Made by a program: the position numbers and the translations under genes. The notes beneath the pieces were generated by a model. It worked only from the letters and a program-made list of their open reading frames with translations, did no database searches and was not told where the DNA came from. From Herbaspirillum sp. meg3 (GTDB lineage Bacteria; Pseudomonadota; Gammaproteobacteria; Burkholderiales; Burkholderiaceae_D), in NCBI RefSeq assembly GCF_002257565.1, contig NZ_CP022736.1:2100284-2164283 (forward strand): a DNA stretch of 64,000 nt, in the 5' to 3' direction. Position 1 is the first letter of the stretch; each line of letters starts with the position of its first letter. Below, one piece after another: positions 11,045 through 42,632 of the stretch.

Positions 11045-11058
11045 TGGCGGAGACGGAG
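11045..11058. repeat. partial copy of tRNA-Ser 3' end (att-like direct repeat, distal copy 2)
   Basis: tggcggagacggag identical to 14 nt at 42539-42552. Confidence 0.6.
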
Positions 11059-11247: not shown

Positions 11248-12534
11248 GTGCGATTTAGTCCTAACCAGGAGCATGAATTGGCAGGCGCAATTAATAAACT
11301 GACAGATACAAAAATAGAAAAGTCCGTAAAAGCAGCAAAACTAGCCTCTAGTCAAAGTAAGGGGAAGGCCTCAATCGTCGGCGATGGCGGAGGTCTATAT
11401 CTTCAGATCAGTAAAACTGGCGCGGCTTCTTGGCTGTTCAGGTATATGCGGGATCGTAAGGCGGTCGGATTGGGTCTCGGCGCATATCCTGACGTATCGC
11501 TCAAGAACGCACGCGTAAAAGCTGACGCGTGCCGCACTCAACTCGCGGAAGACCGAGATCCTTTGACTGAGAAACGAGCTTCTCAGACAGCCGCCAAGGA
11601 ACCTGTCCAAAAAGCGAAGACCTTTGACGAGTGCGCTGCAGAATATATCGCGGATCATCGTGCCGAGTGGAAAAACGCTAAGCATGCCCAGCAATGGGAG
11701 AACACTTTGGCAATGTACGCTTCGCCCGTGATTGGCGATAAAGCCGTGGATGCGATCACTCTGGTCGACATTAAGAAGATCCTAGCGCCGATTTGGACCA
11801 GGAAATATGAAACGGCGAGCCGATTGCGAGGTCGGATCGAGTCAGTTCTTGGCTGGGCCACAGTGCACGAGCTGAGGACTGGCGACAATCCTGCACGGTG
11901 GAAAGGGCATCTAGAGCACCTTTTAGCCAAAAGCTCGCTGACTCTACGCGCGGTCAAACATCACGCCGCGCTGCCCTATGCTGATATTCCAGCGTTCATA
12001 CGTGCGTTGTCCCAGCAGGAAGGGATGGCACGATGGGCGCTTGAATTTCTTATCTTGACGGCGTGCAGGACCAGTGAGATTTGCCAAGCAAAATGGTCCG
12101 AGATAGACCTGAAGAAAGGCCTGTGGACCATCCCGGAAGAGCGCATGAAGGCAGGCAAAGAGCATCGAGTGCCGCTTTCTGATCGGGCCTTAACGGTTTT
12201 GCACTCCGTCAAACCGCTGGCCATTGGAGAATTCATATTCCCTGGCGGCGTGAAGGATAAGCACCTCTCCAACATGGCAATGATGATGTTGCTGCGCCGT
12301 ATGGGCCACGACAAGATCACCGTCCATGGCTTTCGCTCGACGTTCCGCGATTGGATCGGTGAAACGACTCAACACGAGTTCCAAGTTGCCGAGGCGGCAC
12401 TAGCACACGGCCTGGCCGACAAGGTCGTCGCGGCTTATGCACGTGGGGATTTGTATGAAAAACGGTACGCGCTGATGCAGGATTGGAGTAACTATTGTTG
12501 GCCCGCAGAGAAGAGTAAAGCTATCGTTGTCTAA
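11248..12534 (+). CDS. int: tyrosine-type integrase (P4-like, N-terminal arm-binding domain)
   Basis: 428 aa; N-terminal …LTDTKIEK…GDGGGLYLQISKTGAASWLFRY… typical of P4-family integrases; C-terminal catalytic region …HGFRSTFRDW…; true start may be internal/non-ATG. Confidence 0.85.
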   Translation: MRFSPNQEHELAGAINKLTDTKIEKSVKAAKLASSQSKGKASIVGDGGGLYLQISKTGAASWLFRYMRDRKAVGLGLGAYPDVSLKNARVKADACRTQLAEDRDPLTEKRASQTAAKEPVQKAKTFDECAAEYIADHRAEWKNAKHAQQWENTLAMYASPVIGDKAVDAITLVDIKKILAPIWTRKYETASRLRGRIESVLGWATVHELRTGDNPARWKGHLEHLLAKSSLTLRAVKHHAALPYADIPAFIRALSQQEGMARWALEFLILTACRTSEICQAKWSEIDLKKGLWTIPEERMKAGKEHRVPLSDRALTVLHSVKPLAIGEFIFPGGVKDKHLSNMAMMMLLRRMGHDKITVHGFRSTFRDWIGETTQHEFQVAEAALAHGLADKVVAAYARGDLYEKRYALMQDWSNYCWPAEKSKAIVV

Positions 12535-23115: not shown

Positions 23116-23210
23116 ATTGCTGACTATCGATAATGGTGCGTTTTCGATAGTTGACAATGACTTGCGTGAATTGCGATTTGATACCATTTGATGTCCGCAT
23201 CGGCCAAGAA
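23116..23210. repeat. imperfect direct repeat, copy A (shares ~33-bp block with internal 7-bp inverted repeat and ~22-bp block with copy B)
   Basis: ctgacTatcgataatggTgcGttttcgatagTtgaca … tttgaTGtccgcAtcggcCaaga versus copy B at 29766-29870. Confidence 0.7.
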
Positions 23211-24110: not shown

Positions 24111-24182
24111 AAATGCGCGGAACGCTTTCAATATAGTTCGCTTTAGTCATTTCAACTTCGAAGTAGTACAGCCCGCATTTAT

Positions 24183-27107
24183 ATGGCAACTGTCGAATAT
24201 CGATCCAATCGTTTCCCCAAGTCCTCCTTCGCGTCTTATCCCATCTCAATACCCGCGCTGGCTGCGGCATACCAGGCTTATTGTTCTGGTTTGCTGAGAA
24301 CGGATGACGAAGCCCGATTCTTTATCCAATCGTGGGTCGGGGCTCAAGACACACCACTGGATGCCGCTAAGCTCATTATTGAGACCTTTGTAGAAAAACA
24401 AGATCACGAATCATCAGATGATTCCTTTCAATGGCGGTGTCGATGCTGTGCTCGTCTGGTATCCGTGATCGAAAGCACAGCCGAAGCTGTAAATGAGCAT
24501 CCGGCATATCGTGCAGCCATTTACGCCGTACAACGGTTTCACCCGTATTTGTTCAAGGAGATTCTGACCCGATTACTGCTAGGACCTTATGGCCGTAAAG
24601 TAGCCAATAAAGCAGATTTATTCACTCAGCTCGCTCTGGCATTCGATTTTCTAGGTTTTCGCAAACGCAGTGAGGCTCTTTTACGGAATGTCCAAATCAT
24701 GTCGCGTTCCGGCGCTGTGCAGGCCGCCACTGCAGATTTCTCGCTACGCCTGTTGTCAGCGATATGTGCTTTGACAGACAGGTTTGAGCAGGTATTTTTC
24801 TTGAATGCTGAAGCGGAACCTTATGCCGAAACCGTATACGGATTATCTCCCCTTCAAGTTGATATCGCGTGGACATTGGCGGTATGTGGAACCGGAATGG
24901 TAGCGGAAGCAGCACCGCCCACACTATTTGAAATCACCGTGCACGCTCTAAGACATATCGAAAAACGAAATAAGGCCTCTGAGGATCTAACCAACGTTGA
25001 TATGCTAATGCACGGTTTGGATCGGAGTCGACGACCTGGTCTTTCCTCGTTGTCTTGCATAACCACACTCCGAATTTTGCGCGAAGCCCCGCCTGAAGAT
25101 CTTGATGATGCAGATCTCGCAATGACATTTGTTAATACCGGTAATGCTGTTCTCAGAAATATCGCCCTAACGTCCAATTGGAATCTCGTGGCTCGCCACT
25201 TCTTCACGGAACTAATAAGGCTCGTAGATAGTGGAGAAATTAACAGGAGCCCAAAAGTTCAGTATCAAGTAGCCCTCGCCAATGCTGGCATTGGCTATTC
25301 TTATACAAATATCGCCAGTGCAACCGAGGGAATTGAGCAGGTGGACTTATATGAGAAAGCCCGAGAACATCTAGACGCTGCTATCGAGCTACTCAAGCAC
25401 TTTCATGACGATAACTGGATTGAAACCAGCGTCTGGGCTGTTTCTGGTCATGTTGAAGCAGCTTGTGGTCGAATTCAAAAAATGCATCAACGCTTCGCCG
25501 CTGCGTTATTGGCAGGTGCAAAATACTATCAGCTCGATGTTGAAGACCTCGTCCATTTTTTCAGCCCGGATTACGATACAAGGTTAAAGTACAGCGAAGC
25601 ATTGGTCACTACAGGCGAATTTCATACGGCTATTCTATTGGCGAAGGCTGCTGTCAGTGCAATTCATCACCATGCGGCACCGTCAGAAGAGGTAGCAGAG
25701 TTTGCGCAAGCATACATAAGCACTAGGACCTTGGCGCACCGAACACTAATCAACGAATTAAGCCAAGTTGGAAGATACAACGAAGGTGAGCTCGCATACG
25801 ACCTCTTGAAGCAGAATGAATACAATGAATTTACCAGGCGCTCATATTCTCGGGAACAGGTAGCTCAGTATGTCGCACTGACTCCTTTCGAGCTAGAGGC
25901 GATTCGGGAGTCTGGCTTAAGTGAAGCTACCGTCAATGCAAAGCAGATGGAGCATAGAGAGACCACGGTGAAGCTGCTTGCTCAAAGTTTTTCAGGATTG
26001 AATGAAGCCTTAAAGGAACGAATCAGAAGCCGCCATCAGCCAGATGATCTGGAGTCAAGACAAAACCGTATCGATCCATCGACACACCTGAGAGAAACTG
26101 AAGCGATTCTCCGTTTTGTCGCGTCGGGATCGGCAGTCTCGATTGCATTCTCGAGTTCCAAGATAAAAAAGCAACTTGTAGTTCCTTTTGATGAACGAGT
26201 GCTCGGGCCACTAATTTTTTCCTTTAGGCAGCAATGCCGCTTACCAACGTCTGAGCTGCAATCGGTGCAAGTACTTGGACATGAGCTATATCGTATTCTG
26301 CTTTCCCCAATTACAGATTACATCGACAACAATATCTCGCACCTCTACATTGAAACGGATCGCACCCTCGCTAACGTCCCGTTCGCGGCTCTCCATGACG
26401 GCGTCAATTATTTGATCCAGCGCTTTTCTCTCATTTACTTGAATAGAGGTGCATTGAGCATAGTGCCTAAATCAAACGTTGTGGAAACTGAGCACGCCGC
26501 GATTTTTGCTTGTACGGACGCGCCTGGAGAAGAGCTGCCCGGTGCCGGACAGGAGATTAAAATCATTGGTAATCAGCTTGGCAGAATGTCCCGCTTAACC
26601 GTGGATTGCTACGTCGATGAGAAATGTGCAGCCGAGGCTTTTGTACGTGAAATCATTAGGCCTCGCGGCGGGAAAGGTCTAATTCATTTGGCAACGCACG
26701 CAAACTTCAACCCTTCAAGCGACATATCATCAGGATTGATGTTTCATGATGAAGTACTAAGCATTCGTGACCTGAGAACAGAACTGGAAAAGTCAGGTTG
26801 TGATACGGGTCTCTTTGTCCTCTCCGCTTGTGGCACAGCTCGTCAGGACATTGATGTGGAAGGTTTCAGCTCAGTTTTACTCCGATCTGGCGTCAGAACC
26901 ATCCTCCCAACACTTTGGGAAACATTTGACGATTCTGCGCCAGAGTTCTTCCGTCTTTTCTACGCAGATATCCGCGACCTGTCATCCGCATCTTCCGCTG
27001 CATCTGCAGTGAGAGCCGCTCAGCTAGCATTCCTTACATCAAGTTCAGAATTCGCCCATCCGGCTCACTGGGCCCCATACATAGTTGTCAGTGCACAGGT
27101 TTCGTAA
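24183..27107 (+). CDS. CHAT-domain protein (caspase-like protease) with large N-terminal helical region
   Basis: C-terminal ~300 aa: …GLIHLATHANF… (catalytic His), …GLFVLSACGTARQ… (catalytic Cys), C-terminal …HPAHWAPYIVVS… typical CHAT ending. Confidence 0.8.
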   Translation: MATVEYRSNRFPKSSFASYPISIPALAAAYQAYCSGLLRTDDEARFFIQSWVGAQDTPLDAAKLIIETFVEKQDHESSDDSFQWRCRCCARLVSVIESTAEAVNEHPAYRAAIYAVQRFHPYLFKEILTRLLLGPYGRKVANKADLFTQLALAFDFLGFRKRSEALLRNVQIMSRSGAVQAATADFSLRLLSAICALTDRFEQVFFLNAEAEPYAETVYGLSPLQVDIAWTLAVCGTGMVAEAAPPTLFEITVHALRHIEKRNKASEDLTNVDMLMHGLDRSRRPGLSSLSCITTLRILREAPPEDLDDADLAMTFVNTGNAVLRNIALTSNWNLVARHFFTELIRLVDSGEINRSPKVQYQVALANAGIGYSYTNIASATEGIEQVDLYEKAREHLDAAIELLKHFHDDNWIETSVWAVSGHVEAACGRIQKMHQRFAAALLAGAKYYQLDVEDLVHFFSPDYDTRLKYSEALVTTGEFHTAILLAKAAVSAIHHHAAPSEEVAEFAQAYISTRTLAHRTLINELSQVGRYNEGELAYDLLKQNEYNEFTRRSYSREQVAQYVALTPFELEAIRESGLSEATVNAKQMEHRETTVKLLAQSFSGLNEALKERIRSRHQPDDLESRQNRIDPSTHLRETEAILRFVASGSAVSIAFSSSKIKKQLVVPFDERVLGPLIFSFRQQCRLPTSELQSVQVLGHELYRILLSPITDYIDNNISHLYIETDRTLANVPFAALHDGVNYLIQRFSLIYLNRGALSIVPKSNVVETEHAAIFACTDAPGEELPGAGQEIKIIGNQLGRMSRLTVDCYVDEKCAAEAFVREIIRPRGGKGLIHLATHANFNPSSDISSGLMFHDEVLSIRDLRTELEKSGCDTGLFVLSACGTARQDIDVEGFSSVLLRSGVRTILPTLWETFDDSAPEFFRLFYADIRDLSSASSAASAVRAAQLAFLTSSSEFAHPAHWAPYIVVSAQVS

Positions 27108-27152
27108 AAATTTTCCTCACAAATTAGAATACAGCGTAAGGATTTTTTCCCT

Positions 27153-27389
27153 TCAAGCTAGATAGCTTGGCCCGGTTCCTGCGAGCTTTTTGCCACTCTG
27201 CGAATAGACAGCAGCAATATCGGCAATAGATCCAATATTGAAGAATACCTGAGGTTCGATCGAAATAGATGGCCCCACTGCCGGATCCAGAACGAACGGC
27301 ATTTCTCTGTGATGATCTTCCCCCTCAAGAGTATCCCAATGTAACGTTAGTTTGATCCGGAAAATCAGACGGGTCATATCGCCGACCAT
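27153..27389 (-). CDS. hypothetical small protein (doubtful)
   Basis: 78 aa ORF in gap between CHAT gene and next gene. Confidence 0.25.
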   Translation of the reverse strand: MVGDMTRLIFRIKLTLHWDTLEGEDHHREMPFVLDPAVGPSISIEPQVFFNIGSIADIAAVYSQSGKKLAGTGPSYLA

Positions 27390-27487
27390 AACTATGCTTC
27401 ATTCTGCAAATAGATGCTCTATGAGGGCTAAAGCTTCGATTCATCTCACATCGTATAATCTCGAAAAATAATTACTACGTTAGAAAA

Positions 27488-28525
27488 ATGAAAAATATCA
27501 AAGCAATGATGGCTGGGGTGGCCGTCATGAGTGTTCTCTCCTTTGCTCATACAGAAGAGCTAAAGCTCACCAGAGAACAGGAGATTGAATTCAATACGAA
27601 TGGAGCCTCTTTCTACTTGGCTCAAATGCTCAAACAAGAGAAGGCTATAGCTGCGATTCCAGAAACGGAGATTGCGGTGTTCTCTGCAGCCGCTGGAATC
27701 AACAGACTTATCGCGGCGCAGAAGGAGACCGGTAAATTAAATCAGCAGCAGTTCGCTTTTGTTATGTCAGTTGTCCTCGTACGCCTTGCTATCTTGTCTC
27801 AAACAGCCAATATGCCGCCAGCAGTGACCGCTTGTCACTTTGCTGAAGCCAGAAATCTTGAGAACGTAAGCAAGGGCAAGCCTCCAGTGATGCCAAACTG
27901 CCGAACTGATGCCTACGGTCCAGATATTCAAACGGATGCCCTCAGGGTGGTTTCTAAGCCATCCTGGGCTCCAAATAATGCGCTGACAAATAAATGGGTA
28001 GTGAATGCTTTCTCATATGCGGAGGCAATAGGGGTAGTTTCGATGTACGGCACTACTCCTGCCCCTAAGATTGAACCTGAGAAGCCAAGAGACCAGAAGA
28101 ACAATGTTTCTATGTTGGACATGTACAAGAAGGCTGATGATCGAGGGAAGGTGGCCATCTGTGCTCCCATGCTTTGGAAGTACGGAAGTATGAAAGGACT
28201 TGGCATGCAGCTTGAGATTAAGGAAAAAGGAAAGCAGTACAGCCCTGGCGAATTTGAGTTCTTACGTCAAATCAGCATGAATGCTGAGCTCCTTAAAGCT
28301 TCTGCTATCCAGGTTTCCAAAACAGCTTATGATAAAGCTTGGAAAGACTCTGCCAATGATCCTGTACTTCTTACTGGTCAAGGTTTCGCTGATGGTGCGA
28401 AAATGTGTTTTGAATATGCCGAAACACTCACTAAAAAAGGGTGGTTCCTGCCATCTGAAAAAATCAACGCTGAGAATGTCGCTGCCAAATTCGTTCAGGA
28501 TGTTAAAGCGGGAATATCCAAGTAA
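27488..28525 (+). CDS. secreted hypothetical protein
   Basis: 345 aa; clear signal peptide MKNIKAMMAGVAVMSVLSFAHTEE. Confidence 0.55.
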   Translation: MKNIKAMMAGVAVMSVLSFAHTEELKLTREQEIEFNTNGASFYLAQMLKQEKAIAAIPETEIAVFSAAAGINRLIAAQKETGKLNQQQFAFVMSVVLVRLAILSQTANMPPAVTACHFAEARNLENVSKGKPPVMPNCRTDAYGPDIQTDALRVVSKPSWAPNNALTNKWVVNAFSYAEAIGVVSMYGTTPAPKIEPEKPRDQKNNVSMLDMYKKADDRGKVAICAPMLWKYGSMKGLGMQLEIKEKGKQYSPGEFEFLRQISMNAELLKASAIQVSKTAYDKAWKDSANDPVLLTGQGFADGAKMCFEYAETLTKKGWFLPSEKINAENVAAKFVQDVKAGISK

Positions 28526-28780
28526 TAAACTAAGCCCTCAAAAGCGCTTTTAGGAGAGGGACGCAGTCTCCGAGTTTATGATGGAACAACGTATATCCTC
28601 ATTCAAGAGAAATCAGAATTCTATAAATGGTGCGCGGCTGTTTTACCCGACGCCTATAAATGTTTTTTGTATAGTCGAGCAAGCATTGTTCAGTAGTAAG
28701 TTTGATTAAAAGGAAGCTTCGGATTCCTTTTATTTAGGCGGAATGTTTAGAACCATAAGATTCGTAAGAGGGGATATGAA

Positions 28781-29608
28781 GTGATTGATTGGGATAGCAA
28801 TGTTGTAACGGCGCTTGCCACGGGACTGCTGGCATTCATTGGTGTCGCCCAGATTGGAATACTGGTTGCTCAACGTCGGCAAAGCCAGCTCGAACTCATT
28901 GAGCAGTACCGCAGGCGATGGTATGAAACTAGGAAAGATTGGGGCGCCATCATTTTTCTCGGGCGTGACGATGGCGACTACTATCAGGTAGTGGATGCAG
29001 GGACGATCAAGAAATTTGTTGTTGAGAGAGACGATGCTAGTCCGTACGGCCCTACTATTTGGGCATTGGACGCCGCCCGTGCTGTCTTCACCTCGTTAAG
29101 CGATATCGGCACGAGAATTCTGCAGGGCCAATTGCATATTAGGGACGTGTACCCGATCTTTGGTACTGAGTTGTTGCGCCACAGCTATCCATTGAGGGCC
29201 CTACTAGACAACGGATACGTGGAACAGCGAGCTTCTGCAGCCCATCTCAAGGTGAGGACTGAGATTCAAGATTGGTTGGTGTATCACGATGGAATACGCC
29301 GGCGGTGCCTGATATTGATTGATTTGCTTTGGGCAGAAGCCGCGCGACTTGAAGATCTTCCTCCTTTAGATCTGCAACATGCGGCAGATGCAAAGGCTAG
29401 AACTGGGAAACAGAACAAACGTCGACTATGGGTAGAGTGCGTTCGATTAAACGGTATTCGAGGGTTATATTTGGCATCCAGACTTGCTCGTTCTCTGAGA
29501 CACGCTGAGTATCGTCGTTTAGGATCTCGAATTGGGATTGATAAAGAGCGCTTGCAGTCTTTAGACGAAGAATGGACGAAACGACTGCTCAATCGATTAC
29601 TTAAGTAA
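28781..29608 (+). CDS. membrane-anchored hypothetical protein
   Basis: 275 aa; N-terminal TM (…VTALATGLLAFIGVAQIGILVAQ…). Confidence 0.5.
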   Translation: MIDWDSNVVTALATGLLAFIGVAQIGILVAQRRQSQLELIEQYRRRWYETRKDWGAIIFLGRDDGDYYQVVDAGTIKKFVVERDDASPYGPTIWALDAARAVFTSLSDIGTRILQGQLHIRDVYPIFGTELLRHSYPLRALLDNGYVEQRASAAHLKVRTEIQDWLVYHDGIRRRCLILIDLLWAEAARLEDLPPLDLQHAADAKARTGKQNKRRLWVECVRLNGIRGLYLASRLARSLRHAEYRRLGSRIGIDKERLQSLDEEWTKRLLNRLLK

Positions 29609-29995: not shown

Positions 29996-30367
29996 TTAAA
30001 CATCGTTTGATCTAGCAGCCTTCATCAAACATTTAGACATTTTGGCTAAATGAGACTGCGCCGCCTTTGTCAGATTGACCTGCTTTCGCCTTCCATCCTC
30101 AGTATCACCTAGCGCAATCCATCCTTTAGCGATTAACGATTTCAGGCGCTGATGAATCGTCACTGATGAGCCAAGCGTGCTTGCAGATGTAATGTCAGTG
30201 ACGGACACTCGTGCTTCCGCACGCAAGGTACGTGCGATATGGTCGAAGATTTTCTGTTCTAATGGATCAAGAGCGGGGAGGTCTTGAATCGTTTCTATTA
30301 GTTCAAGAAACCGAAGGTAAATATCCATGCCTTTTTTTATCTTTGTAGAGCTCATAGTAAATCTCAT
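29996..30367 (-). CDS. small winged-helix transcriptional regulator (MarR/PadR-like)
   Basis: 123 aa; …VTDITSASTLGSSVTIHQRLKSLIAKGWIAL… HTH-like. Confidence 0.45.
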   Translation of the reverse strand: MRFTMSSTKIKKGMDIYLRFLELIETIQDLPALDPLEQKIFDHIARTLRAEARVSVTDITSASTLGSSVTIHQRLKSLIAKGWIALGDTEDGRRKQVNLTKAAQSHLAKMSKCLMKAARSNDV

Positions 30368-30420: not shown

Positions 30421-30984
30421 ATGGCACGTGATGAGTGGGTTCGAGTGAATTTTTTCATGGTAGCAGCTTCAGTTTCGATTTTCCTCATTTCCCTGGTAGT
30501 CAATGAAATTGTCTTCCCTCGGCTGGATTTCATTACTGGGGTTAATTGGATTTATCTGCCAGCTGGAATGAGACTGTTATGCACGTTACTGTTTGGTGAG
30601 GCAGGTGCCGCCGGAATATTGATCGCCTCCTGGTTGGCCTGCTTTTGCTATTTCTTCCCCAACGATCTCTTACGCTCTTTTGCAGGCGGAATTATCTCTG
30701 CTCTCGCGCCGTATCTTTCTTATCGTTTTATGTCCGAGCGCTATCACTTGAGTTCATCGTTGCGCGAGTTGACCGGAAATCGGTTACTGAAAGGCGTAGT
30801 TCTATATGCAATTGCAAGCTCATCAATGCATCACTTGTGGTTTTTTCTAGTGAGAGACATTCACGCATCCCTGGCTAGTTGGGGAGTGATGTTTATTGGA
30901 GACTTAACTGGGTCTTTAATCGTTCTCTATATAGTTAAGGTAGTCATTGGCTTATTCAAGACGGTTCGTATCGGCCCGAAGTAA
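30421..30984 (+). CDS. polytopic membrane protein, hypothetical
   Basis: 187 aa, 5-6 hydrophobic helices. Confidence 0.5.
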   Translation: MARDEWVRVNFFMVAASVSIFLISLVVNEIVFPRLDFITGVNWIYLPAGMRLLCTLLFGEAGAAGILIASWLACFCYFFPNDLLRSFAGGIISALAPYLSYRFMSERYHLSSSLRELTGNRLLKGVVLYAIASSSMHHLWFFLVRDIHASLASWGVMFIGDLTGSLIVLYIVKVVIGLFKTVRIGPK

Positions 30985-31339
30985 GCAGATCACGATCCAG
31001 TATGGAAACCGAATAGATTCGTACATAGTAATTACATTTAATTATTAATTTTAATTGGTAATCGAAAATATTCCGCTGATATACTGGGTAGTCATCTAGA
31101 CGCACTTGGTAAACAATAGGAATCAACATACTTGTCATCATGTTTTTTGACGAGGTCTATCCAAAGTTTTTCCGTTTTGAATCGAAGTCCTCCATAGATT
31201 TCTCATGATTGGTAGGTCTGTAGAAGCAAGTTCGTTTGTGATGTGACATCGGGGTGCTTTTGTCGGGGTAACGCGCCTTCAGCTAGTGGTCTTGACGGGG
31301 CCTTTTCAGGCCGTTTTAAAAAAGAATAAAAAGGTTGTT

Positions 31340-32662
31340 ATGGCCATAATTGATTTGGTGAAATGGAATGGAAATCCTTCCATTTTGGCTTGGCGTTTCC
31401 CGAGTGATCAACTTTCTACCTGGACTCAGCTGATCGTCAACGAGACGCAAGAAGCCTACCTTGTCAAAGAAGGGGTCTACCAAGGTCCATTTGGGGCTGG
31501 ACGGCATACTCTAGATACCGAAAATATACCGCTGCTGGCATCGTTAATGGGCTTGCCGTTTGGAGGGAAGTCGCCGTTTACTGCAGAGGTTTGGTTCGTA
31601 AATCGACTGACGAATCTTGATATAAAGTGGGGTACATCCGACCCTATCCAGCTACAAGATCCGAAATATCAGCTGATGGTACCTGTGCGGGCATTCGGCC
31701 AGTATGGCGTTAAAATTTCTGATGCGAAGAAATTCCTCCTCAAACTTGTCGGTACTTTACCCGGTTTTGATTCGGCCACATTGGCTGAATATTTCAAAGG
31801 TGTATTCACTACCAAGATCAAGACCAATATTGCTCAGGCCATTATAAAAAATGGTCATTCGGTGTTGGAGATATCGACTCACCTGGAAGCGCTCTCAGAA
31901 ATACTCAAGACGTCACTCGCTCCCGAAATGGAAGAGTTCGGCGTTAGCTTAGTGCAATTCAACATCCATTCCATCAACGTTCCGGAGACTGATCCTGCGG
32001 TCATCAGCTTGAAGGCTGCGTTGGCCAAGCGCACTGAAATGGGAATACTAGGATTCAACTACCAGCAAGAACGCAGTTTCGATGTATTGCAAACAGCCGC
32101 CGGCAATGAAGGAACTGCGGGGGGTGTAATGGGCGCAGGGATGGGACTAGGGATGGGCGCGGCGATAGGTGGGCCGATGGGTGGTGCCTTCGCGCAGATG
32201 ACTCCTATTATTCAGCCTAGTGGTCCAGCTGGCGGTTCTGGTGGAGCGCCACTGAAGTGTCCGAGTTGCAGCGCATCCAATCCCCCGGGAACACGTTTCT
32301 GTGGCTCTTGTGCGGCCAATCTTAATGCAGCAGGCATTTCTGCAAAAGCTGGCATTACCTGTGACAAATGCGGAACGAATATTCCTAGCGGCTCGAAGTT
32401 CTGCCCGAACTGCGCAGACGAAGTGAATCCATGCCCTGCTTGTGGCGAGGATAACGCCAAAGGCTCCGCCCAATGCCGAAGCTGTAAAACGGCGTTACCA
32501 GTTCCATGCCCAACGTGTGAAGCATCGGTGCCCACCGGTTCCAAGTTTTGCAATTCGTGTGGTAGCAAGATGACGCCCTCGTGCTCCAAATGTGGCGCTG
32601 AGCTCGTTGCTGGAGCCAAGTTTTGTAACGACTGCGGTCATCCTCAAAATCCAGCTTCATAG
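31340..32662 (+). CDS. SPFH/band-7-like protein (COG4260, virion-core-protein-like) with five C-terminal zinc-ribbon repeats
   Basis: N-terminus MAIIDLVKWNGNPSILAWRFPSDQLSTWTQLIVNETQEAYLVKEG… characteristic of COG4260; C-terminus has 5 CxxC…(F/Q)CxxC units (e.g. CPSCSASNPPGTRFCGSC, CDKCGTNIPSGSKFCPNC). Confidence 0.7.
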   Translation: MAIIDLVKWNGNPSILAWRFPSDQLSTWTQLIVNETQEAYLVKEGVYQGPFGAGRHTLDTENIPLLASLMGLPFGGKSPFTAEVWFVNRLTNLDIKWGTSDPIQLQDPKYQLMVPVRAFGQYGVKISDAKKFLLKLVGTLPGFDSATLAEYFKGVFTTKIKTNIAQAIIKNGHSVLEISTHLEALSEILKTSLAPEMEEFGVSLVQFNIHSINVPETDPAVISLKAALAKRTEMGILGFNYQQERSFDVLQTAAGNEGTAGGVMGAGMGLGMGAAIGGPMGGAFAQMTPIIQPSGPAGGSGGAPLKCPSCSASNPPGTRFCGSCAANLNAAGISAKAGITCDKCGTNIPSGSKFCPNCADEVNPCPACGEDNAKGSAQCRSCKTALPVPCPTCEASVPTGSKFCNSCGSKMTPSCSKCGAELVAGAKFCNDCGHPQNPAS

Positions 32663-32680
32663 TCCAATCAGACCTTCTCC

Positions 32681-33373
32681 ATGAAAACTGCTTCTTTAAT
32701 GAATATCGCCGCATTGGTAGTGGCCGTGACAGTTGCGACAATCGTTTTCATTTTGGTGCCTGAGCCTGCATGGAATTCCACAACGATTGCTACTGCGATT
32801 GCTTTTGTAGCGGCGATGGGATTTGTTTTCTATATTCCGTCTGTTCTGCGAAAACAGCATAAAAATACCGAGGGACGCGTGCAGCTGGCAGCGATTGGGC
32901 CGACCGGAGCGGTCAGCCTTCTCCTATTGCTGGTGACCGCAGGAGCTTTCGCGCTGGCGCTTGCGAATCATCCAGCTTGGGGGCTCGCACTTCTGACTTT
33001 TGGCATTGGAGCTTTCGTTGTCGCAAGTCTGATGCTGAACGCAGCATTGAAAGTTGTAGGGAACGTCTCCGTGAAATCGTCTGCGCCCAGTCGCCACATT
33101 GAATGGCAACGACAAGTATCGGCCATGGCCTTGCAATCGACACATCAAGAGTCTCTTGCAAAGCTGCGCGCAGTCGAAGAAAACTTTCTCTATTTGGCTA
33201 GCGATGTGCCAGGTGGCAGCCCATATGACGTCGATGTAGACCAGACTCTTAATGCTGTGTCGGATCAATTAGCACTAGACGGGGCGAACGATTTGCTCGG
33301 TCAGTTACGCAAACTTGACAAGCTCATCGCGCAACGCGATATCTACCTGCGCTCTGCTCGCAGCAAGATTTGA
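32681..33373 (+). CDS. membrane protein, hypothetical
   Basis: 230 aa; 4 N-terminal TM helices then soluble tail; 19-bp gap after upstream gene. Confidence 0.55.
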   Translation: MKTASLMNIAALVVAVTVATIVFILVPEPAWNSTTIATAIAFVAAMGFVFYIPSVLRKQHKNTEGRVQLAAIGPTGAVSLLLLLVTAGAFALALANHPAWGLALLTFGIGAFVVASLMLNAALKVVGNVSVKSSAPSRHIEWQRQVSAMALQSTHQESLAKLRAVEENFLYLASDVPGGSPYDVDVDQTLNAVSDQLALDGANDLLGQLRKLDKLIAQRDIYLRSARSKI

Positions 33374-33424
33374 TACTTGGCTTGCCGACAAAATTCTGAA
33401 CTTAACAATATCAGGGGATATGAA

Positions 33425-35506
33425 ATGGGAAACGCTTGTAATTCGTGCGGAGCGGAAATCGTCTTTGAAGCTGGAAAGCAATCGCTAGTCTGCGAATTTT
33501 GTGGCGCAGTCAACCGAGTTGAACGACCAGAAGACGCGTTAGCGACTTCGTTTGACCGCATAGTTCCCATTGCCGTCACTCCTCAAGAAGTCGATTACAA
33601 GCTCTATACCTATATGAGCACGGGTAACTTCACGCCTGACGACATGATCGAGGCATCAACTATCACGTTACGAGAACACTATTACGTTCCCGCGTTCGCA
33701 TTCAGGGTGGACTACGAAGCTACATGGACCGCATCGTTTGGTTTCGACAGGCAGGAACCATACACCGCCTATCGTAGCGTTACTCGTAATAACCGTACCC
33801 ACCAGGAAGCGTACACCGCTTATAAAACGGTCACGGATTGGCGTCCGGCAAACGGCATTGAGGCCGGCATATTTGATGTCGCAGGTTATGCAGGGAACCG
33901 TTTGAACGGTTCCTCCCTCGCGCCTGCAAATTTGGTCGTTGATGCAGTCATGCATGGCAGTTCTACCGAATATAACGCCTCTTTCACCACCGGCTTTGAG
34001 GTCGAAGAATTTTCGGCATCAGAAAAAAAGGTTTTTGATTCGTTGGATAGCGAAATCAATGCCGGGATCGATCAGCGCGTGAAGCATCACGCGCAAGGGG
34101 ACAAGCAACGGGACTGGCACTGGAATGCGCGAATGAGTCACGCCACCACGACATATGCCGTGCCAATTTCTCATGTGACATTTCAATATGGCGAAAAGGA
34201 ATACAACATCTGGATTGGTGGGCACAACGTGGATGCTATTCGAGCAGATGACTTACCTGTCGACCATGATAAAAAGAAGGCTGCCAACATTGGCTTTGCT
34301 CCCGCTGCCTTTGGACTGATCTCTACGGCCGGAACGGCATATGTCTGGGGCTTTGCGGGAACGAGTTTGATAGCCACTGCCATTGCTCTAGGCTATGGAT
34401 TCATGCGACGCAAGGCGCTGATTGACTACTCCAAGTCAATCCGTAGTTCGTTGTTGACGCAAATGCAAGCTTCAAATCAAGTAGTTGCTGGACTGAGCGA
34501 TGAGGAACAACTTAAGGTCACCAAAGCATTTCAACGACCAGAGCGCCCATTATTTGCCAGTATTCATAAGGATAAAATTGTCTTACCTGCACTCGCTGCT
34601 TTCGCTTTTTTTGGAGCTATTGTGCCCAATGTGGTCCTTAGTCCTGCGGCGATTGAACAGCGTGCCATTGCGCGCCAAAATTCGGAACGAGCTGAGCAAT
34701 ATCGGTTAGCCGCTCTGGCACGTACTGCGCAAGAGGAGGCTGAGCGCAAGGCAGACGACGACGAGCGAGCGGCCAGAAAAGCAAGAATTGAGGCTGTTGC
34801 GGCTCAAAAGGCCGAGGCTGAGGCCGCTGGACAAAATGGCACGGAAGTCGCTGCGACACAGGCGACACCTGTTCAGGAAAATGCGTCAGTCCAGAACACC
34901 GTGCCTGTTGCGTTACCTGTCGCTGCGGCTGACAGCCGGGTACCTATCAACGTAGCTGGGAGATTCACCATACTTGCTCCGGACGAGTCGAAGCAATTGC
35001 TTACCGCCATGCTTCAACAAGCAGCCAGTACTTTTAAGATCGCTCAACTCAAAGGTCAAATAGAAGCACTTCCAAAGCCAATGACCGGTGATCGAAAAGC
35101 AGCCCGAAAGCTGAACGACCAAGGTCTTGCAGCATTGAAATCTGGTGACTACGCGCAAGCGGTTCTTGCGCTGAAAAATGCTACGTCTACCGACTCTGCG
35201 GACGTCGAAGTATTAAATAACTACGTATACGCTTTGATCAAAGCGCAGCGCATGCGCGAAGCGGAGTCCGAGGCTGGACGTTTGTTGACCTTCAGTCCGG
35301 GACGTGCGTCGGCGTGGGCAAATCTTGCAGAGATCTATGCACAAACAGAGAAAAAGGAAGAAGCTGTAGCCGCTTTGGTTCTGGCGTTCCAATTTTCCTC
35401 GAACAAGGATCGTACTATTACTTTTTTGAATGAGCGAGCAGGTGATCCGAGTTCGCCACTGCAGCTGGTCGCAAAGAAGGCAATAGAAGTAATCGAAAAA
35501 TTGTAA
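33425..35506 (+). CDS. zinc-ribbon / TM / coiled-coil / TPR multidomain protein
   Basis: Starts MGNACNSCGAEIVFEAGKQSLVCEFCGAVN (zinc ribbon); central hydrophobic segment (…FAPAAFGLISTAGTAYVWGFAGTSLIATAIALGYGF…); Ala/Glu/Arg-rich coiled coil; C-terminal TPR-like repeats; AGGGGA RBS. Confidence 0.6.
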   Translation: MGNACNSCGAEIVFEAGKQSLVCEFCGAVNRVERPEDALATSFDRIVPIAVTPQEVDYKLYTYMSTGNFTPDDMIEASTITLREHYYVPAFAFRVDYEATWTASFGFDRQEPYTAYRSVTRNNRTHQEAYTAYKTVTDWRPANGIEAGIFDVAGYAGNRLNGSSLAPANLVVDAVMHGSSTEYNASFTTGFEVEEFSASEKKVFDSLDSEINAGIDQRVKHHAQGDKQRDWHWNARMSHATTTYAVPISHVTFQYGEKEYNIWIGGHNVDAIRADDLPVDHDKKKAANIGFAPAAFGLISTAGTAYVWGFAGTSLIATAIALGYGFMRRKALIDYSKSIRSSLLTQMQASNQVVAGLSDEEQLKVTKAFQRPERPLFASIHKDKIVLPALAAFAFFGAIVPNVVLSPAAIEQRAIARQNSERAEQYRLAALARTAQEEAERKADDDERAARKARIEAVAAQKAEAEAAGQNGTEVAATQATPVQENASVQNTVPVALPVAAADSRVPINVAGRFTILAPDESKQLLTAMLQQAASTFKIAQLKGQIEALPKPMTGDRKAARKLNDQGLAALKSGDYAQAVLALKNATSTDSADVEVLNNYVYALIKAQRMREAESEAGRLLTFSPGRASAWANLAEIYAQTEKKEEAVAALVLAFQFSSNKDRTITFLNERAGDPSSPLQLVAKKAIEVIEKL

Positions 35507-35590
35507 TCCCGGCTTTTCGACAGGCAATAAATAATTGCATACGCTCGCATATCGCATTCAGCGCTCATACTACTTAAATAATCAGATAAC

Positions 35591-36262
35591 ATGACCAGCA
35601 AAAATCCGACCCCTGTTGCGAATCTTAGTTACCGAGAGAAACTAAAAGATCCAAAATGGAAAAAAGTGCGAGACCAAATTATTCTGGACAGAGGAAGGAT
35701 ATGCGAATGTTGTGGAATTCAGGGAACGCATCACCCTACGGGGAAGCCAGTTCAGTATGAGGTTCATCACGGATATTATGTGTATTGGAAACAGCCTTGG
35801 GAGTATGAGGAAGAAACTCTTTGGGTTGTGTGCGATATTTGCCACGATAAAGTGCATGATTCTCTCGCTATATTGCAGCGAGAAATTGGAATGTTAGATC
35901 CAATCGCTCTTAACGTACAAGCTAAAGAAGTGCAAGCGATTAAGGACGCGGAAATTCGACTATATCTGGAAGAGCTCCATTCTTCACAAGCGATGGAATT
36001 GCAAGAAGCGTTGAAAGACGAGTATGAAGACCAGCTCGAGCGTCACCAGTATATAGAAGTTGTAGTCTATTCCTCCGATGAACTGGGGCCTAGTGGATGC
36101 CAAGATCTATGTGACAAGTTAGACCAACAATTCCCCGGGATTCGAATAATTCAAGTCGAAGACGGGCCTGATTGTCTCTGGCAAGTAATCGGAGATCCTT
36201 TGGCCAGATCCGATGTTGTCGAAGAGGTTACAACTTGGCTTCGTCAAAATGCTAGGCAATGA
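35591..36262 (+). CDS. HNH-nuclease-like protein with acidic C-terminal domain
   Basis: …CECCGIQGTHHPTGKPVQYEVHHGYY…VVCDICHDKVH… (CxxC…HH…CxxCH HNH pattern). Confidence 0.55.
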   Translation: MTSKNPTPVANLSYREKLKDPKWKKVRDQIILDRGRICECCGIQGTHHPTGKPVQYEVHHGYYVYWKQPWEYEEETLWVVCDICHDKVHDSLAILQREIGMLDPIALNVQAKEVQAIKDAEIRLYLEELHSSQAMELQEALKDEYEDQLERHQYIEVVVYSSDELGPSGCQDLCDKLDQQFPGIRIIQVEDGPDCLWQVIGDPLARSDVVEEVTTWLRQNARQ

Positions 36263-36380
36263 AGTTCATCTAACCCCAGAAAAACTAAACCTATTGCAGG
36301 ATCAAATAAATCGTTATCCGAAATATTAAAAATCCAGATGGCAACTAAAGAAGCTGCTACTGATTTTTAGCATCACTGTT

Positions 36381-36412
36381 ACTAGCCAATTGATGAGGAT
36401 GAATTGGCTAGT
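36381..36412. repeat. perfect 11-bp inverted repeat (hairpin) immediately 3' of recombinase gene
   Basis: actagccaatt-gatgaggatg-aattggctagt. Confidence 0.7.
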
Positions 36413-36428
36413 TCAGACAAAAACTTCA

Positions 36429-37397
36429 CTAAAGTAGACTTGGAATCTTCCGTTTCGCTACAGGCCTGATATACCGTGCCAGTGTCACGTCCGACTTGTG
36501 CCCAGTCTGCTCACGAATTTGATAGGGCTGTAAGCCTACGATCGCGGCCTCGGTACAGTATCCAGCACGCAAACTATGGCCGGAGACGCATTTGGCGGCG
36601 TCCGCACCACTCATTCTACGAACAGCGGACTTCACGATCAGGGCTACTGATTGGCCTGTCAGCGCTTTGTCACCAACTGCCTGGTCGTGACGGTTAAGAG
36701 GGCGAAACAGCGGTCCCGCCGCAATGCCAGCAAGTTCCATCCACACTTTGAGGGCCTTGACCGGGCAGCGGCTGCCCTTGGCATGCGGGATGAACACGAC
36801 TCTGCCCGCTCCTTCCTGGTCCGTCTTGGATCTCCGGATCAGCAGTTCGATGCCGTTCTCAAAGTAGGTCATATCCTCCACCTTCAGTGCCACTAGCTCA
36901 GACCTCCGGAACGCACCCGCAAACCCAATCAAGATCAAGGCCTTATCACGTGCAGCACGCATTGGTTTCTGCTTGTCCACCAGCACCATCAGTTCCAACA
37001 AGTCATCTTTGACGAGAGCCTTGACTCGGCGCTGTACGGTGCCAAAGGTGCGTCTGATACCCTGCATGGTGCGCTTCACCAATCGATCCATCACTGGCGA
37101 AGGAAGCTGATCGTCTGTATGGGCGCGATGAATGGCGATCAGTCTGTGCTGGAGGGTTGCCACCGCCGTCGTGCCTGCACATTCCGCCAGGTAATCTGCG
37201 ATCATCTCGGGCGTAGCCGGTATGGTGCCGCCATGGCTTTTGAAATGACTCAAATCCGCTTCATAGCTGCGCTTAGTGGCTCGCGACTGCGCCGCTGCCG
37301 CATATGTACTTGCGCTCGCCGAAACCGTAGGTGAATCAGTCTCTGCATGCTCTGGTGCTATGGGACGGCCGGAACCTGCTTGTTTGCTCGCGCTCAT
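36429..37397 (-). CDS. tyrosine recombinase / integrase (XerD-like, second copy in island)
   Basis: Start at ATG 37395-37397; N-terminal SAM-like …TKRSYEADLSHFKSH…; C-terminal …GHSLRAGYCTEAA…TLARYIRP… (R-H-R-Y catalytic pattern). Confidence 0.8.
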   Translation of the reverse strand: MSASKQAGSGRPIAPEHAETDSPTVSASASTYAAAAQSRATKRSYEADLSHFKSHGGTIPATPEMIADYLAECAGTTAVATLQHRLIAIHRAHTDDQLPSPVMDRLVKRTMQGIRRTFGTVQRRVKALVKDDLLELMVLVDKQKPMRAARDKALILIGFAGAFRRSELVALKVEDMTYFENGIELLIRRSKTDQEGAGRVVFIPHAKGSRCPVKALKVWMELAGIAAGPLFRPLNRHDQAVGDKALTGQSVALIVKSAVRRMSGADAAKCVSGHSLRAGYCTEAAIVGLQPYQIREQTGHKSDVTLARYIRPVAKRKIPSLL

Positions 37398-37399
37398 GA

Positions 37400-37744
37400 T
37401 CAATACTCGCCGGTCAGAAGCATGGTGGTGACAGATCGATCTGCCTCGGTGATGATGTAGATGCGGTCCTTGCCGATTTCGTAGGCCGATAGGATGCGCA
37501 TTTCGTGCTGGATCGAGAGCCTGTTCTGTTCGATGTCCTCGGCGCACAAGGTGCCATAGTCACCATGCTGATGACGGGAGAAGTAAGGCGTGGCGTTGAC
37601 GCCGTTGTGATCCAGCAGGTCGAGAGCGGCAGGTGTAGCGCAAACTAACCCGAGGGGAAATAGCGGCTCCTTCGACAGCTTCGTCAAGGAGTGCACTACG
37701 GCGGCATTGTTGGTTTCTGTTTTGTTATTCATGGAAGACCTCAA
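37400..37744 (-). CDS. hypothetical protein, translationally coupled to recombinase
   Basis: 114 aa; stop 2 bp upstream of recombinase start. Confidence 0.5.
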   Translation of the reverse strand: MRSSMNNKTETNNAAVVHSLTKLSKEPLFPLGLVCATPAALDLLDHNGVNATPYFSRHQHGDYGTLCAEDIEQNRLSIQHEMRILSAYEIGKDRIYIITEADRSVTTMLLTGEY

Positions 37745-42538: not shown

Positions 42539-42632
42539 TGGCGGAGACGGAGGGATTCGAACCCTCGATACAGGTTTAAGCCCATATGCTTCCTTAGCAG
42601 GGAAGTGCCTTCGACCACTCGGCCACGTCTCC
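42539..42632 (-). tRNA. tRNA-Ser (anticodon GCU)
   Basis: 94-nt cloverleaf on minus strand: 7-bp acceptor GGAGACG/CGTCTCC, anticodon loop CTGCTAA, long variable arm, T-arm GGTTCGAATCC, encoded CCA; close to E. coli tRNA-Ser(GCU). Confidence 0.9.

What the first reader, a model, noticed from the sequence alone, without database searches (positions are those of the whole stretch)
31340..36262. Island-borne SPFH(COG4260)-5x zinc-ribbon / membrane / zinc-ribbon-TM-coiled-coil-TPR operon followed by an HNH protein
Seen directly: three tightly spaced co-oriented genes (gaps 19 and 52 bp):
- 441-aa SPFH/band-7 protein of the virion-core-protein-like COG4260 type, ending in five tandem CxxC…CxxC zinc ribbons.
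- 230-aa four-TM protein.
- 694-aa protein with an N-terminal zinc ribbon, one TM, a long Ala/Glu/Arg-rich coiled coil and C-terminal TPRs.
A 223-aa HNH-motif protein follows.

Established knowledge: the Bacillus pspA-ydjGHI operon combines a COG4260 SPFH protein (YdjI), a membrane protein (YdjH) and a zinc-ribbon protein (YdjG) with PspA for membrane-stress handling. Here the triad occurs without PspA, on a mobile island, with much expanded zinc-ribbon and TPR content.

Inference: a horizontally transferred membrane-integrity sensing or abortive-infection-type module rather than housekeeping envelope-stress machinery.
Basis: partly seen in the sequence, partly recalled or inferred. Interest (0 to 1): 0.7.

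Follow-up and report, generated by a model that had tools for sequence, protein, structure and literature searches.

The report
SamGI-like SPFH membrane operon on island
Three co-transcribed genes on a horizontally acquired island of Herbaspirillum sp. meg3 encode a Gram-negative relative of the Bacillus SamG/SamI (YdjG/YdjI) membrane-stress module. It has no PspA and a different membrane partner, and nothing found here indicates an anti-phage system.

Summary
Genes A (31340-32662), B (32681-33373) and C (33425-35506) are tightly spaced on the + strand.

- A is a soluble Band_7_1 SPFH protein with five zinc ribbons.
- B has four transmembrane helices and a cytosolic helical bundle.
- C has a zinc ribbon, a ~270-aa domain, about three membrane segments, a charged linker and a TPR domain.
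- D, the following gene, is a true HNH protein.

The genes lie on a ~31.5-kb low-GC island at tRNA-Ser that also carries defence-type genes.

A is homologous to B. subtilis YdjI/SamI. The N-terminal module of C is homologous to YdjG/SamG (hhalign 99.2%). B is unrelated to YdjH, and no pspA is linked here or in 78 related loci.

The A-B-C order recurs in about 55 loci, from Beta- and Deltaproteobacteria, Acidobacteriota and others. Their neighbours are mostly housekeeping genes, and in Oxalobacter and termite-gut Deltaproteobacteria the position is syntenic. D never accompanies the triad.

The C-terminal domains of C relatives are envelope or periplasmic types (TPR, LprI, OmpA, SPOR, TonB_C).

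The best reading is a trans-envelope SPFH scaffold or stress-sensing module: a new variant of a known kind, laterally acquired in this strain. The abortive-infection idea is unsupported but not excluded.

The parts
31340..32662 (+). Gene A: soluble SPFH protein (440 aa), a YdjI/SamI homologue. SPFH domain at residues 18-234, Gly/Met-rich low-complexity linker at ~250-300, five zinc ribbons at 307-432.
   Evidence: Band_7_1 PF13421, E 3e-45, plus DZR and Zn_Ribbon models. Ten CxxC motifs and no hydrophobic segment. 23% identity to YdjI over the full length, E 6e-22.
32258..32635 (+). Five tandem CxxC...CxxC zinc ribbons at the C-terminus of A.
   Evidence: A five-ribbon tail is present in 33 of 59 A homologues in related loci. 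22 of 59 have no ribbon and end in a tail I read as SHOCT-like, which was not profile-tested.
32681..33373 (+). Gene B: inner-membrane protein (230 aa) with four transmembrane helices and a cytosolic C-terminal four-helix bundle (~138-229). The family has no annotation.
33425..35506 (+). Gene C: 693-aa membrane protein with a YdjG/SamG-like cytoplasmic module, membrane segments, a charged linker and a TPR domain.
   Evidence: 100% identical to hmeg3_09695 of Herbaspirillum sp. meg3. Domain evidence is given in the sub-parts below.
33425..34240 (+). C residues 1-272: zinc ribbon plus an alpha/beta domain homologous to YdjG/SamG (cytoplasmic).
34295..34654 (+). C residues ~291-410: membrane hairpin (~291-330), conserved basic cytoplasmic loop (nearly invariant R328, S336, R340, L344), and a third transmembrane segment (~383-410).
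   Evidence: Hydropathy of the window protein and 40 homologues. Conservation columns.
35117..35389 (+). C residues ~565-655: TPR repeats, inferred to be periplasmic.
   Evidence: Pfam TPR_8, TPR_19 and TPR_16. Only 26 of 85 C homologues share this tail. Other relatives carry LprI, OmpA, SPOR, TonB_C, PG_binding_1, PPIC rotamase, Sel1 or DUF4189 in its place.
35591..36262 (+). Gene D: HNH endonuclease-like protein (223 aa). It is a neighbour on the island, not part of the conserved module.
   Evidence: PHROG HNH families, best E 7e-12, residues 12-99. No homologue in any of the 78 related loci.
11045..11058 (.). 14-nt copy (TGGCGGAGACGGAG) of the 3' end of tRNA-Ser, marking the distal island boundary. 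A second 15-nt copy lies at 10869-10883.
   Evidence: Sequence read. It matches 42539-42552; the second copy matches 42543-42557.
11248..12534 (+). P4-type tyrosine integrase of the island.
   Evidence: Arm-DNA-bind_3, Phage_int_M and Phage_integrase.
42539..42632 (-). tRNA-Ser(GCU), the integration site. Its 3' end faces the island.
   Evidence: ARAGORN; sequence.

Best explanation
**What it is.** A-B-C is a self-contained three-protein inner-membrane module. It is the Gram-negative counterpart of the B. subtilis SamG/SamI (YdjG/YdjI) system.

**Shown**
- A is a soluble SPFH protein of the YdjI type.
- C carries a cytoplasmic module homologous to YdjG.
- The gene order A-B-C is conserved across phyla.

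**Inferred mechanism**
- B and C sit in the inner membrane with their conserved domains in the cytoplasm.
- They recruit A, which oligomerises into an SPFH assembly on the cytoplasmic face of the membrane.
- The variable C-terminal domain of C (TPR in this genome) lies in the periplasm and contacts envelope components.
- The complex therefore couples the state of the envelope to an SPFH scaffold, and A restrains or organises the membrane partners, as proposed for SamI and SamGH.
- It works without a linked PspA. It uses a non-homologous four-helix membrane protein (B) where Bacillus has the TPM-domain protein YdjH.

**In this strain.** The module arrived by horizontal transfer on a tRNA-Ser island. 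The HNH gene is an unrelated neighbour.
For: - **Homology to the studied system.**
  - A against YdjI: E 6e-22 over the full length.
  - C against YdjG: hhalign 99.2%, E 2e-19.
  - The YdjG sequence was verified against B. subtilis records, and the pspA-ydjGHI locus was fetched.
- **Conserved unit.** The A-B-C order is found in about 55 of the loci from Betaproteobacteria, Deltaproteobacteria, Acidobacteriota and others.
- **A is soluble.** It has no hydrophobic segment, like YdjI, which needs YdjG and YdjH to reach the membrane (PMC8581546).
- **Topology of C.** Basic residues flank the hairpin, and there is a third transmembrane segment. The tails of C relatives are envelope or periplasmic domains: TPR in ~20 of 73, plus LprI, DUF4189, Sel1, OmpA, SPOR, TonB_C, PG_binding_1 and PPIC rotamase.
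- **Link to YdjH.** One relative fuses a TPM domain, the domain found in YdjH.
- **Context elsewhere.** Neighbours are mostly housekeeping genes, and the position is syntenic across six Oxalobacter species representatives and across groups of Deltaproteobacteria.
- **Published model.** SamG-SamH form a membrane sensor that SamI recruits to and restrains (bioRxiv 10.64898/2026.02.06.704340).
- **Fold.** The model of the C domain weakly resembles YpeB and PepSY domains, as Ravi et al. described for YdjG (PMC11237479).
Against: - No interaction, localisation or phenotype data exist for this triad; the function is extrapolated from one Firmicute system at 23-27% identity.
- B has no homology to YdjH, so the membrane part of the complex may work differently.
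- PspA, the effector in Bacillus, is not linked. I could not check whether the genome encodes one elsewhere.
- The motifs most conserved in the C family (TVTDWRPxNG, HAQGDxQRDWHW) do not appear conserved in YdjG in the profile alignment, so the domain may have a distinct activity.
- Both structure models have only moderate confidence (pLDDT ~70).
- The periplasmic location of the TPR domain is inferred, not measured.
- In this genome the triad sits among defence-type genes.
Confidence: 0.6

Rival explanations
1. The triad is an anti-phage, abortive-infection-type system. Phage-induced membrane or envelope damage is sensed through C. Release of the SPFH brake (A) lets B and/or C arrest growth or depolarise the membrane.
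For: - In this genome it lies on a tRNA-Ser island with an OLD-family ATPase-TOPRIM protein, an Mrr-type nuclease, a CHAT protein, DUF4238 and an HNH gene.
- The closest relatives are scattered across orders and one other phylum, and some are flanked by transposase fragments, so this clade is mobile.
- In B. subtilis, loss of SamI with SamGH present gives a starvation-like, low-translation state. That resembles a toxin held in check.
Against: - A, B and C match no PADLOC or PHROG model.
- No nuclease, protease, NADase or known pore-forming effector domain is present.
- The 114 nearest-neighbour ORFs in ~36 loci gave ten single-member PADLOC model hits with no model recurring. Their Pfam families are mostly housekeeping. 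No background control was run.
- Only one other locus has a recombinase nearby.
- The position is syntenic within Oxalobacter, next to 2-oxoacid dehydrogenase complex genes, and within other lineages.
- No C homologue was found in 50,697 phage records, and only one remote one in plasmids.
Confidence: 0.12
2. The triad is a general SPFH scaffold that organises or regulates an unidentified membrane client, such as a protease, transporter or cell-wall enzyme, as HflK/C does for FtsH. B and C would be adaptors only, and there would be no stress-signalling role.
For: - SPFH proteins commonly act as scaffolds for membrane complexes (discussion read).
- The tails of C relatives include peptidoglycan-binding and chaperone-type domains: OmpA, SPOR, PG_binding_1 and PPIC rotamase.
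- DUF805 and YdjM membrane proteins recur next to some triads.
Against: - No client gene is conserved with the triad; neighbours vary between lineages.
- The only studied homologues are linked to stress sensing.
- This rival overlaps with the best explanation and cannot be separated from it by sequence alone.
Confidence: 0.2
3. C is a zinc-binding transmembrane anti-sigma factor or transcription regulator, with A and B as accessory proteins.
For: - Its architecture (cytoplasmic zinc-binding N-terminus, membrane segments, periplasmic TPR) resembles that of some anti-sigma factors. This comparison is from my own knowledge.
- A winged-helix regulator gene lies ~1 kb upstream of A, and the same regulator is found near the triad in Paraburkholderia L023.
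Against: - The zinc site is a CxxC...CxxC ribbon homologous to that of YdjG, not an anti-sigma domain, and no anti-sigma family matched.
- No Sigma70-type (ECF sigma factor) family was among the 25 most frequent Pfam families in the 114 neighbour ORFs. That call lists only the top 25 of 95 matched families.
- The regulator pair accompanies the triad in only 2 loci.
Confidence: 0.04

Closest known systems
B. subtilis pspA-ydjGHI (pspA-samGHI) operon: PspA, SamG, SamH and SamI
   Same: - Both have a Band_7_1 SPFH protein with no membrane anchor, a Gly/Met-rich linker and a C-terminal zinc ribbon (A and SamI/YdjI).
- Both have a membrane protein with an N-terminal zinc ribbon and a homologous ~250-aa cytoplasmic domain (C and SamG/YdjG).
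- In both, a third membrane protein is encoded in the same operon.
   Different: - No pspA is linked.
- The third protein, B, has four transmembrane helices and a helical bundle. It is not the TPM-domain protein YdjH.
- The gene order is A-B-C, which corresponds to I-x-G instead of G-H-I.
- A has five ribbons; YdjI has one.
- C has one N-terminal ribbon where YdjG has two. It also has two extra membrane segments, a conserved basic loop and a ~280-aa periplasmic extension with TPR.
- The host is Gram-negative.
- In this genome the operon is on a mobile island.
SPFH-NfeD pairs and HflK/C-FtsH (classical bacterial SPFH systems)
   Same: An SPFH-domain protein is encoded next to a dedicated membrane partner, and a scaffold role at the inner membrane is presumed.
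   Different: - A belongs to Band_7_1, not the stomatin, HflK/C or flotillin branches, and has no anchor of its own.
- B and C gave no NfeD match, and no protease is linked.
E. coli PspABC phage-shock system
   Same: The logic is analogous: a membrane sensor pair plus a peripheral oligomerising protein at the cytoplasmic face. This analogy is drawn by the authors of the SamGHI study.
   Different: There is no homology. No PspA, PspB or PspC family was matched in the triad, and no PspA homologue was found in the window's ORFs.

Membership tests
SamGHI / YdjGHI-type SPFH membrane module | An anchorless Band_7_1 SPFH protein with a low-complexity linker and C-terminal zinc ribbon (SamI/YdjI). | tested here: met
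   PF13421, E 3e-45. No transmembrane segment. Full-length BLASTP to YdjI, E 6e-22, including the linker and ribbon.
SamGHI / YdjGHI-type SPFH membrane module | A membrane protein with an N-terminal zinc ribbon and a YpeB/PepSY-like domain (SamG/YdjG). | tested here: met
SamGHI / YdjGHI-type SPFH membrane module | A TPM-domain membrane protein (SamH/YdjH). | tested here: not met
   YdjH carries TPM_phosphatase. B has no Pfam match and no BLASTP similarity to YdjH. No YdjH homologue occurs in any related locus.
SamGHI / YdjGHI-type SPFH membrane module | Co-transcription with pspA. | tested here: not met
   phmmer with B. subtilis PspA found no hit in the window's ORFs or in the 78 related loci. 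The rest of the genome was not available.
SamGHI / YdjGHI-type SPFH membrane module | Membrane recruitment of the SPFH protein by its partners, and a stress-inducible (sigma-W-type) promoter. | not testable with these tools
   This needs localisation, interaction and expression experiments. The sigma-70 scan found no + strand site upstream of A, which says little.
Known or candidate anti-phage defence systems | A match to a model of a described defence protein. | tested here: not met
   PADLOC v2: no hit for A, B or D. C gave one weak TPR-region hit, E 1.7e-3.
Known or candidate anti-phage defence systems | Homologues are consistently found next to defence genes or on mobile islands. | tested here: not met
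   This holds in the window but not elsewhere. The 114 neighbour ORFs of ~36 loci gave ten single-member PADLOC model hits and mostly housekeeping Pfam families. A recombinase occurs near one other locus only. Positions are syntenic in several lineages. No background control was run, so this is a coarse test.
Known or candidate anti-phage defence systems | Protection against phage on expression. | not testable with these tools
   This requires an experiment.
SPFH-NfeD pair | An NfeD-type partner (transmembrane segment plus OB-fold) adjacent to the SPFH gene. | tested here: not met
   B and C gave no NfeD match. The cytosolic part of B is modelled as all-helical.

The most novel reading that the evidence does not exclude
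On mobile islands, the SamG/SamI-like triad acts as a membrane-integrity-triggered growth-arrest (abortive infection) device. The SPFH protein A would hold the B/C membrane pair in check. Phage-induced envelope or membrane damage, sensed through the periplasmic TPR domain of C, would release that brake and shut down the infected cell. If so, this would be, as far as I know, the first SPFH-based immune system, and it would link the 'phage shock' envelope-stress machinery directly to defence.
Probability: 0.1. Interest if true: 0.75.

Novelty: new variant of a known kind. Interest (0 to 1): 0.35.

Why it matters
**What is new.** The only studied member of this kind is the Firmicute pspA-samGHI operon. 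It has been interpreted through its link to PspA. Three results here change that picture.
- The SamG-SamI pair is a much wider and older unit that works without a linked PspA.
- It tolerates replacement of the middle membrane protein.
- In diderm bacteria, its SamG-like subunit carries interchangeable periplasmic envelope-binding domains.

**What this suggests.** The core function would be coupling envelope state to a cytoplasmic SPFH assembly.

**What it makes testable.**
- The B/C-dependent recruitment of A.
- The periplasmic location of the TPR domain.
- A 'brake' phenotype when A alone is deleted.

**Caveat on method.** The case also shows that residence on a defence-rich island is not enough by itself to call a module a defence system.

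Tried and rejected
- **Defence and phage libraries.** PADLOC and PHROG scans of A, B and C found nothing useful.
- **Plasmid and phage records.**
  - tblastn of C found one remote homologue, on a Comamonas replicon next to an 'SPFH and helix-turn-helix' protein, and none in phages.
  - tblastn of A found only generic Band_7_1 proteins, mostly on Ralstonia megaplasmids, and three unannotated metagenomic 'Bacteriophage sp.' contigs.
- **Solved structures by sequence.** The only matches were a weak zinc-ribbon hit for A and TPR hits for the C profile; D gave only chance-level hits.
- **Structure of B.**
  - The last homologue search returned only 24 unnamed proteins.
  - The afdb50 library was unavailable.
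- **Upstream region.**
  - The sigma-70 and terminator scan of 30900-36500 found no + strand promoter-like site and no more sites than shuffles.
  - The alignment of regions upstream of A in close relatives was uninformative, and some of my coordinates there were probably off.
- **Anti-sigma-factor reading of C.** Rejected: wrong zinc motif, and no ECF sigma family among the 25 most frequent neighbour families.
- **HNH gene as a fourth component.** Rejected: no co-occurrence in any other locus.
- **Literature.** Searches for SPFH with phage defence, and for COG4260, Band_7_1 or PF13421, found no description of this Gram-negative triad.
- **PADLOC control.** I prepared a control set of far-flank ORFs but did not run it, because it held only 53 ORFs.
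Full report
**1. What is there**

The window is part of the Herbaspirillum sp. meg3 chromosome; gene C is 100% identical to hmeg3_09695.

Four co-oriented ORFs lie on the + strand:
- A at 31340-32662
- B at 32681-33373
- C at 33425-35506
- D at 35591-36262

The gaps are 18, 51 and 84 nt.

*Protein A (440 aa)*
- It matches Pfam Band_7_1 (PF13421) at E 3e-45 over residues 18-234, plus several zinc-ribbon models.
- It has ten CxxC motifs, meaning five ribbons, between residues 307 and 432.
- It has no hydrophobic segment.

*Protein B (230 aa)*
- It has four hydrophobic helices.
- It matches nothing in Pfam, NCBIfam, PADLOC or PHROGs.

*Protein C (693 aa)*
- It starts with a CxxC...CxxC ribbon and ends in TPR repeats.
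- It has a weakly hydrophobic stretch at ~291-330 and a strong transmembrane segment at ~383-410.

*Protein D (223 aa)*
- It matches several phage HNH endonuclease families (best E 7e-12).

**2. The island**

- GC falls from 0.56-0.60 to 0.44-0.55 between about 10.6 and 42.5 kb.
- A P4-type integrase lies at 11248-12534.
- tRNA-Ser(GCU) lies at 42539-42632, with its 3' end facing the low-GC stretch.
- Two partial copies of that 3' end lie just before the integrase: TGGCGGAGACGGAG at 11045-11058 and GGAGACGGAGGGATT at 10869-10883.
- The island also carries these genes:
  - DUF4238
  - a UDG-like gene followed by an OLD-family ATPase-TOPRIM gene
  - an Mrr-type nuclease
  - a 974-aa CHAT protein
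  - a second tyrosine recombinase

So 'island-borne' holds, and the island is rich in defence-type genes.

**3. Relation to the Bacillus system**

I recovered the true B. subtilis YdjG with a homologue search (99% identical hits named from B. subtilis). I then fetched the pspA-ydjGHI locus (L011).

| Comparison | Result |
|---|---|
| A vs YdjI | 23% identity end to end, E 6e-22, covering the SPFH domain, Gly/Met-rich linker and zinc ribbon |
| C vs YdjG, pairwise | 27% over 95 residues, E 4e-8 |
| C family (32 diverse sequences) vs YdjG family (16), profile-profile | probability 99.2%, E 2e-19, 244 columns; C residues 1-272 |
| B vs YdjH | no similarity; YdjH has a TPM domain, B does not |

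- These scores are weak. They do agree with the published description of YdjG as two zinc ribbons plus a YpeB-related domain and a transmembrane segment (PMC11237479).
- Two of the three proteins are therefore homologues of SamI and SamG. The third is a non-homologous replacement.

**4. How widespread and how constant**

- An exhaustive HMMER search with C found 2,212 cluster representatives at E ≤ 1e-3 and 1,053 at E ≤ 1e-10.
- Some of these match only the TPR part. Among the 150 listed, most match residues ~5-405, and their lengths range from ~340 to ~1,000 aa.
- A scan of one genome per species gave 78 loci. They come from:
  - Betaproteobacteria: Polaromonas, Gallionella, Oxalobacter, Paraburkholderia, Pandoraea, Massilia, Variovorax
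  - termite-gut Deltaproteobacteria
  - Acidobacteriota, Chlorobi, Nitrospiraceae and Bacteroidota
  - a few archaeal MAGs
- With locally built HMMs, the order A-B-C is present in about 55 loci. Most of the remainder are cut by contig ends or have C alone.
- None of these loci has a PspA, YdjH or D homologue.
- Three loci (L077, L079, L083) have two small ORFs in place of B.
- A Bacteroides finegoldii record has an SPFH protein, a 251-aa hypothetical protein and a zinc-ribbon protein next to obgE, adk and hpt.
- The constant core is therefore the SPFH protein plus the SamG-like protein. The middle membrane protein is replaceable.

**5. Modularity of the ends**

*Tail of A*
- It is five zinc ribbons in 33 of 59 homologues.
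- It is absent in 22 of 59, which end in a tail I read as SHOCT-like. That reading was not profile-tested.
- It is a helix-turn-helix in the Comamonas protein, according to that record's annotation.

*Tail of C*
- It is even more variable. Only 26 of 85 homologues share the window's TPR tail.
- Among 73 diverse relatives, Pfam finds TPR in about 20, and also DUF4189, LprI, Sel1, CcmH-type TPR, OmpA, SPOR, TonB_C, PG_binding_1, PPIC rotamase and one TPM domain.
- These are domains of the periplasm and cell envelope.

*Inferred topology of C*
- Basic residues flank the 291-330 hairpin.
- The basic loop after it is conserved (R328, S336, R340 and L344 nearly invariant).
- Together with the periplasmic-type tails, this gives: N-terminal module in the cytoplasm, a membrane hairpin, a cytoplasmic loop, a third transmembrane segment, then the linker and TPR in the periplasm.

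*Structure of B*
- The model of B (pLDDT 70.5) shows four transmembrane helices and a cytosolic four-helix bundle.

**6. Is it a defence module?**

*Evidence in favour*
- The island context here.
- The mobility of the closest clade. Relatives at 66-75% identity sit in Polaromonas, Zoogloeaceae, Sideroxydans and Opitutae MAGs.
- A ~70% identical version is seen on more than 300 wastewater contigs between transposase fragments.

*Evidence against*
- A, B and C have no PADLOC or PHROG match.
- No recognisable effector domain is present.
- Among 114 ORFs within two genes of the triad in ~36 non-redundant loci:
  - the most frequent Pfam families are DUF805 (6), YdjM (4), PhzF, TetR and a transposase (3 each)
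  - these are followed by 2-oxoacid dehydrogenase components and other metabolic families
  - PADLOC gave ten model hits, each to a single ORF
- A tyrosine recombinase occurs in the flanks of only one other locus.
- Six Oxalobacter species representatives share 4-11 flanking orthologues around the triad. Similar synteny groups exist for Dakarella/Mesosutterella and three groups of Deltaproteobacteria. In those lineages the triad behaves as a vertically inherited chromosomal locus.
- One metagenomic relative is also flanked by housekeeping genes.
- I ran no background control for the PADLOC rate, so the test is coarse. Nothing points to enrichment.

**7. Mechanism**

In B. subtilis:
- YdjI is soluble and needs YdjG and YdjH to reach the membrane.
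- YdjH binds YdjI and PspA, and YdjG binds YdjH (PMC8581546).
- A 2026 preprint proposes that SamG-SamH form a membrane sensor that SamI restrains. Loss of SamI alone gives chronic stress signalling, which is suppressed by deleting samH.

By homology and architecture I propose the following, all of it inferred:
- B and C anchor A at the inner membrane.
- A oligomerises there.
- The periplasmic domain of C ties the complex to envelope components.
- The module senses or buffers envelope and membrane perturbation without a dedicated PspA.

**8. Verdict**

  - Correct: the homology to the Ydj system, the absence of pspA and lateral acquisition.
  - Not supported: the 'abortive infection rather than housekeeping' inference, and the inclusion of the HNH gene.
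- This is a new variant of a known kind: an uncharacterised, widespread diderm version of the SamG/SamI module.
- Interest is moderate (0.35).
- The most novel reading still open is an SPFH-braked abortive-infection device on mobile islands (probability about 0.1).

Noticed in passing
window 10869-10883, 11045-11058 and 42539-42632: Two separate partial copies (15 and 14 nt) of the 3' end of tRNA-Ser(GCU) lie 160 nt apart, just upstream of the P4-type integrase. This is the island end far from the tRNA. It suggests two successive integrations or a remnant att site. The integrase sits at the end distal to the tRNA gene, which is unusual.
   Followed up: partly
window 16545-29608: The island carries a run of defence-type genes: DUF4238 (16545-17573, -), a UDG-like gene overlapping the start of an OLD-family AAA_15/TOPRIM gene (19378-21824), an Mrr_cat nuclease (21973-22995), and a 974-aa CHAT-domain protein (24183-27107). 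The CHAT gene is flanked by unannotated ORFs of 174, 345 and 275 aa. None of these genes was examined further.
   Followed up: no
window 29996-30367 (-) and 30421-30984 (+); L023 14014-15949: A divergent pair lies just upstream of the triad: a winged-helix (LexA/MarR-like) regulator and a MASE1-like membrane protein. Homologues at 43-49% identity lie 2-3 kb downstream of the triad in Paraburkholderia sp. CNPSo 3274. No other locus has them. This could be an accessory regulator or shared island cargo.
   Followed up: partly
window 14774-14804 and 17745-17775: A 31-nt direct repeat (87% identity) brackets a ~3-kb block holding a 410-aa unannotated ORF, a 128-aa ORF and the DUF4238 gene. It may mark an inserted cassette.
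   Followed up: no
window 36429-37547 (-): A second tyrosine recombinase (Phage_integrase, E 2e-11) lies inside the island, directly after the HNH gene. The island may be composite.
   Followed up: no
L023 12226-12909, L027, L031 and other loci: In Paraburkholderia and Variovorax-type loci, a ~227-233-aa ORF follows C and overlaps its stop codon. DUF805 is the most frequent neighbour family overall (6 of 114 ORFs). I did not check that these overlapping ORFs are the DUF805 matches. If they are, DUF805 may be a fourth component in that sub-clade. No such ORF follows C in the window.
   Followed up: no
L077, L079, L083; L091 (Bacteroides finegoldii): Variant modules exist in which B is replaced by two small ORFs or by an unrelated 251-aa protein, and in which the zinc-ribbon protein is short (192 aa). 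One C relative has a TPM domain, the YdjH domain, fused to it.
   Followed up: partly
L005-L009 (wastewater metagenomes): A ~70% identical triad is seen on more than 300 contigs, always between a DDE_Tnp_1_5 fragment and a Tn5-type transposase fragment. This suggests an IS-bounded mobile copy that is abundant in wastewater.
   Followed up: no
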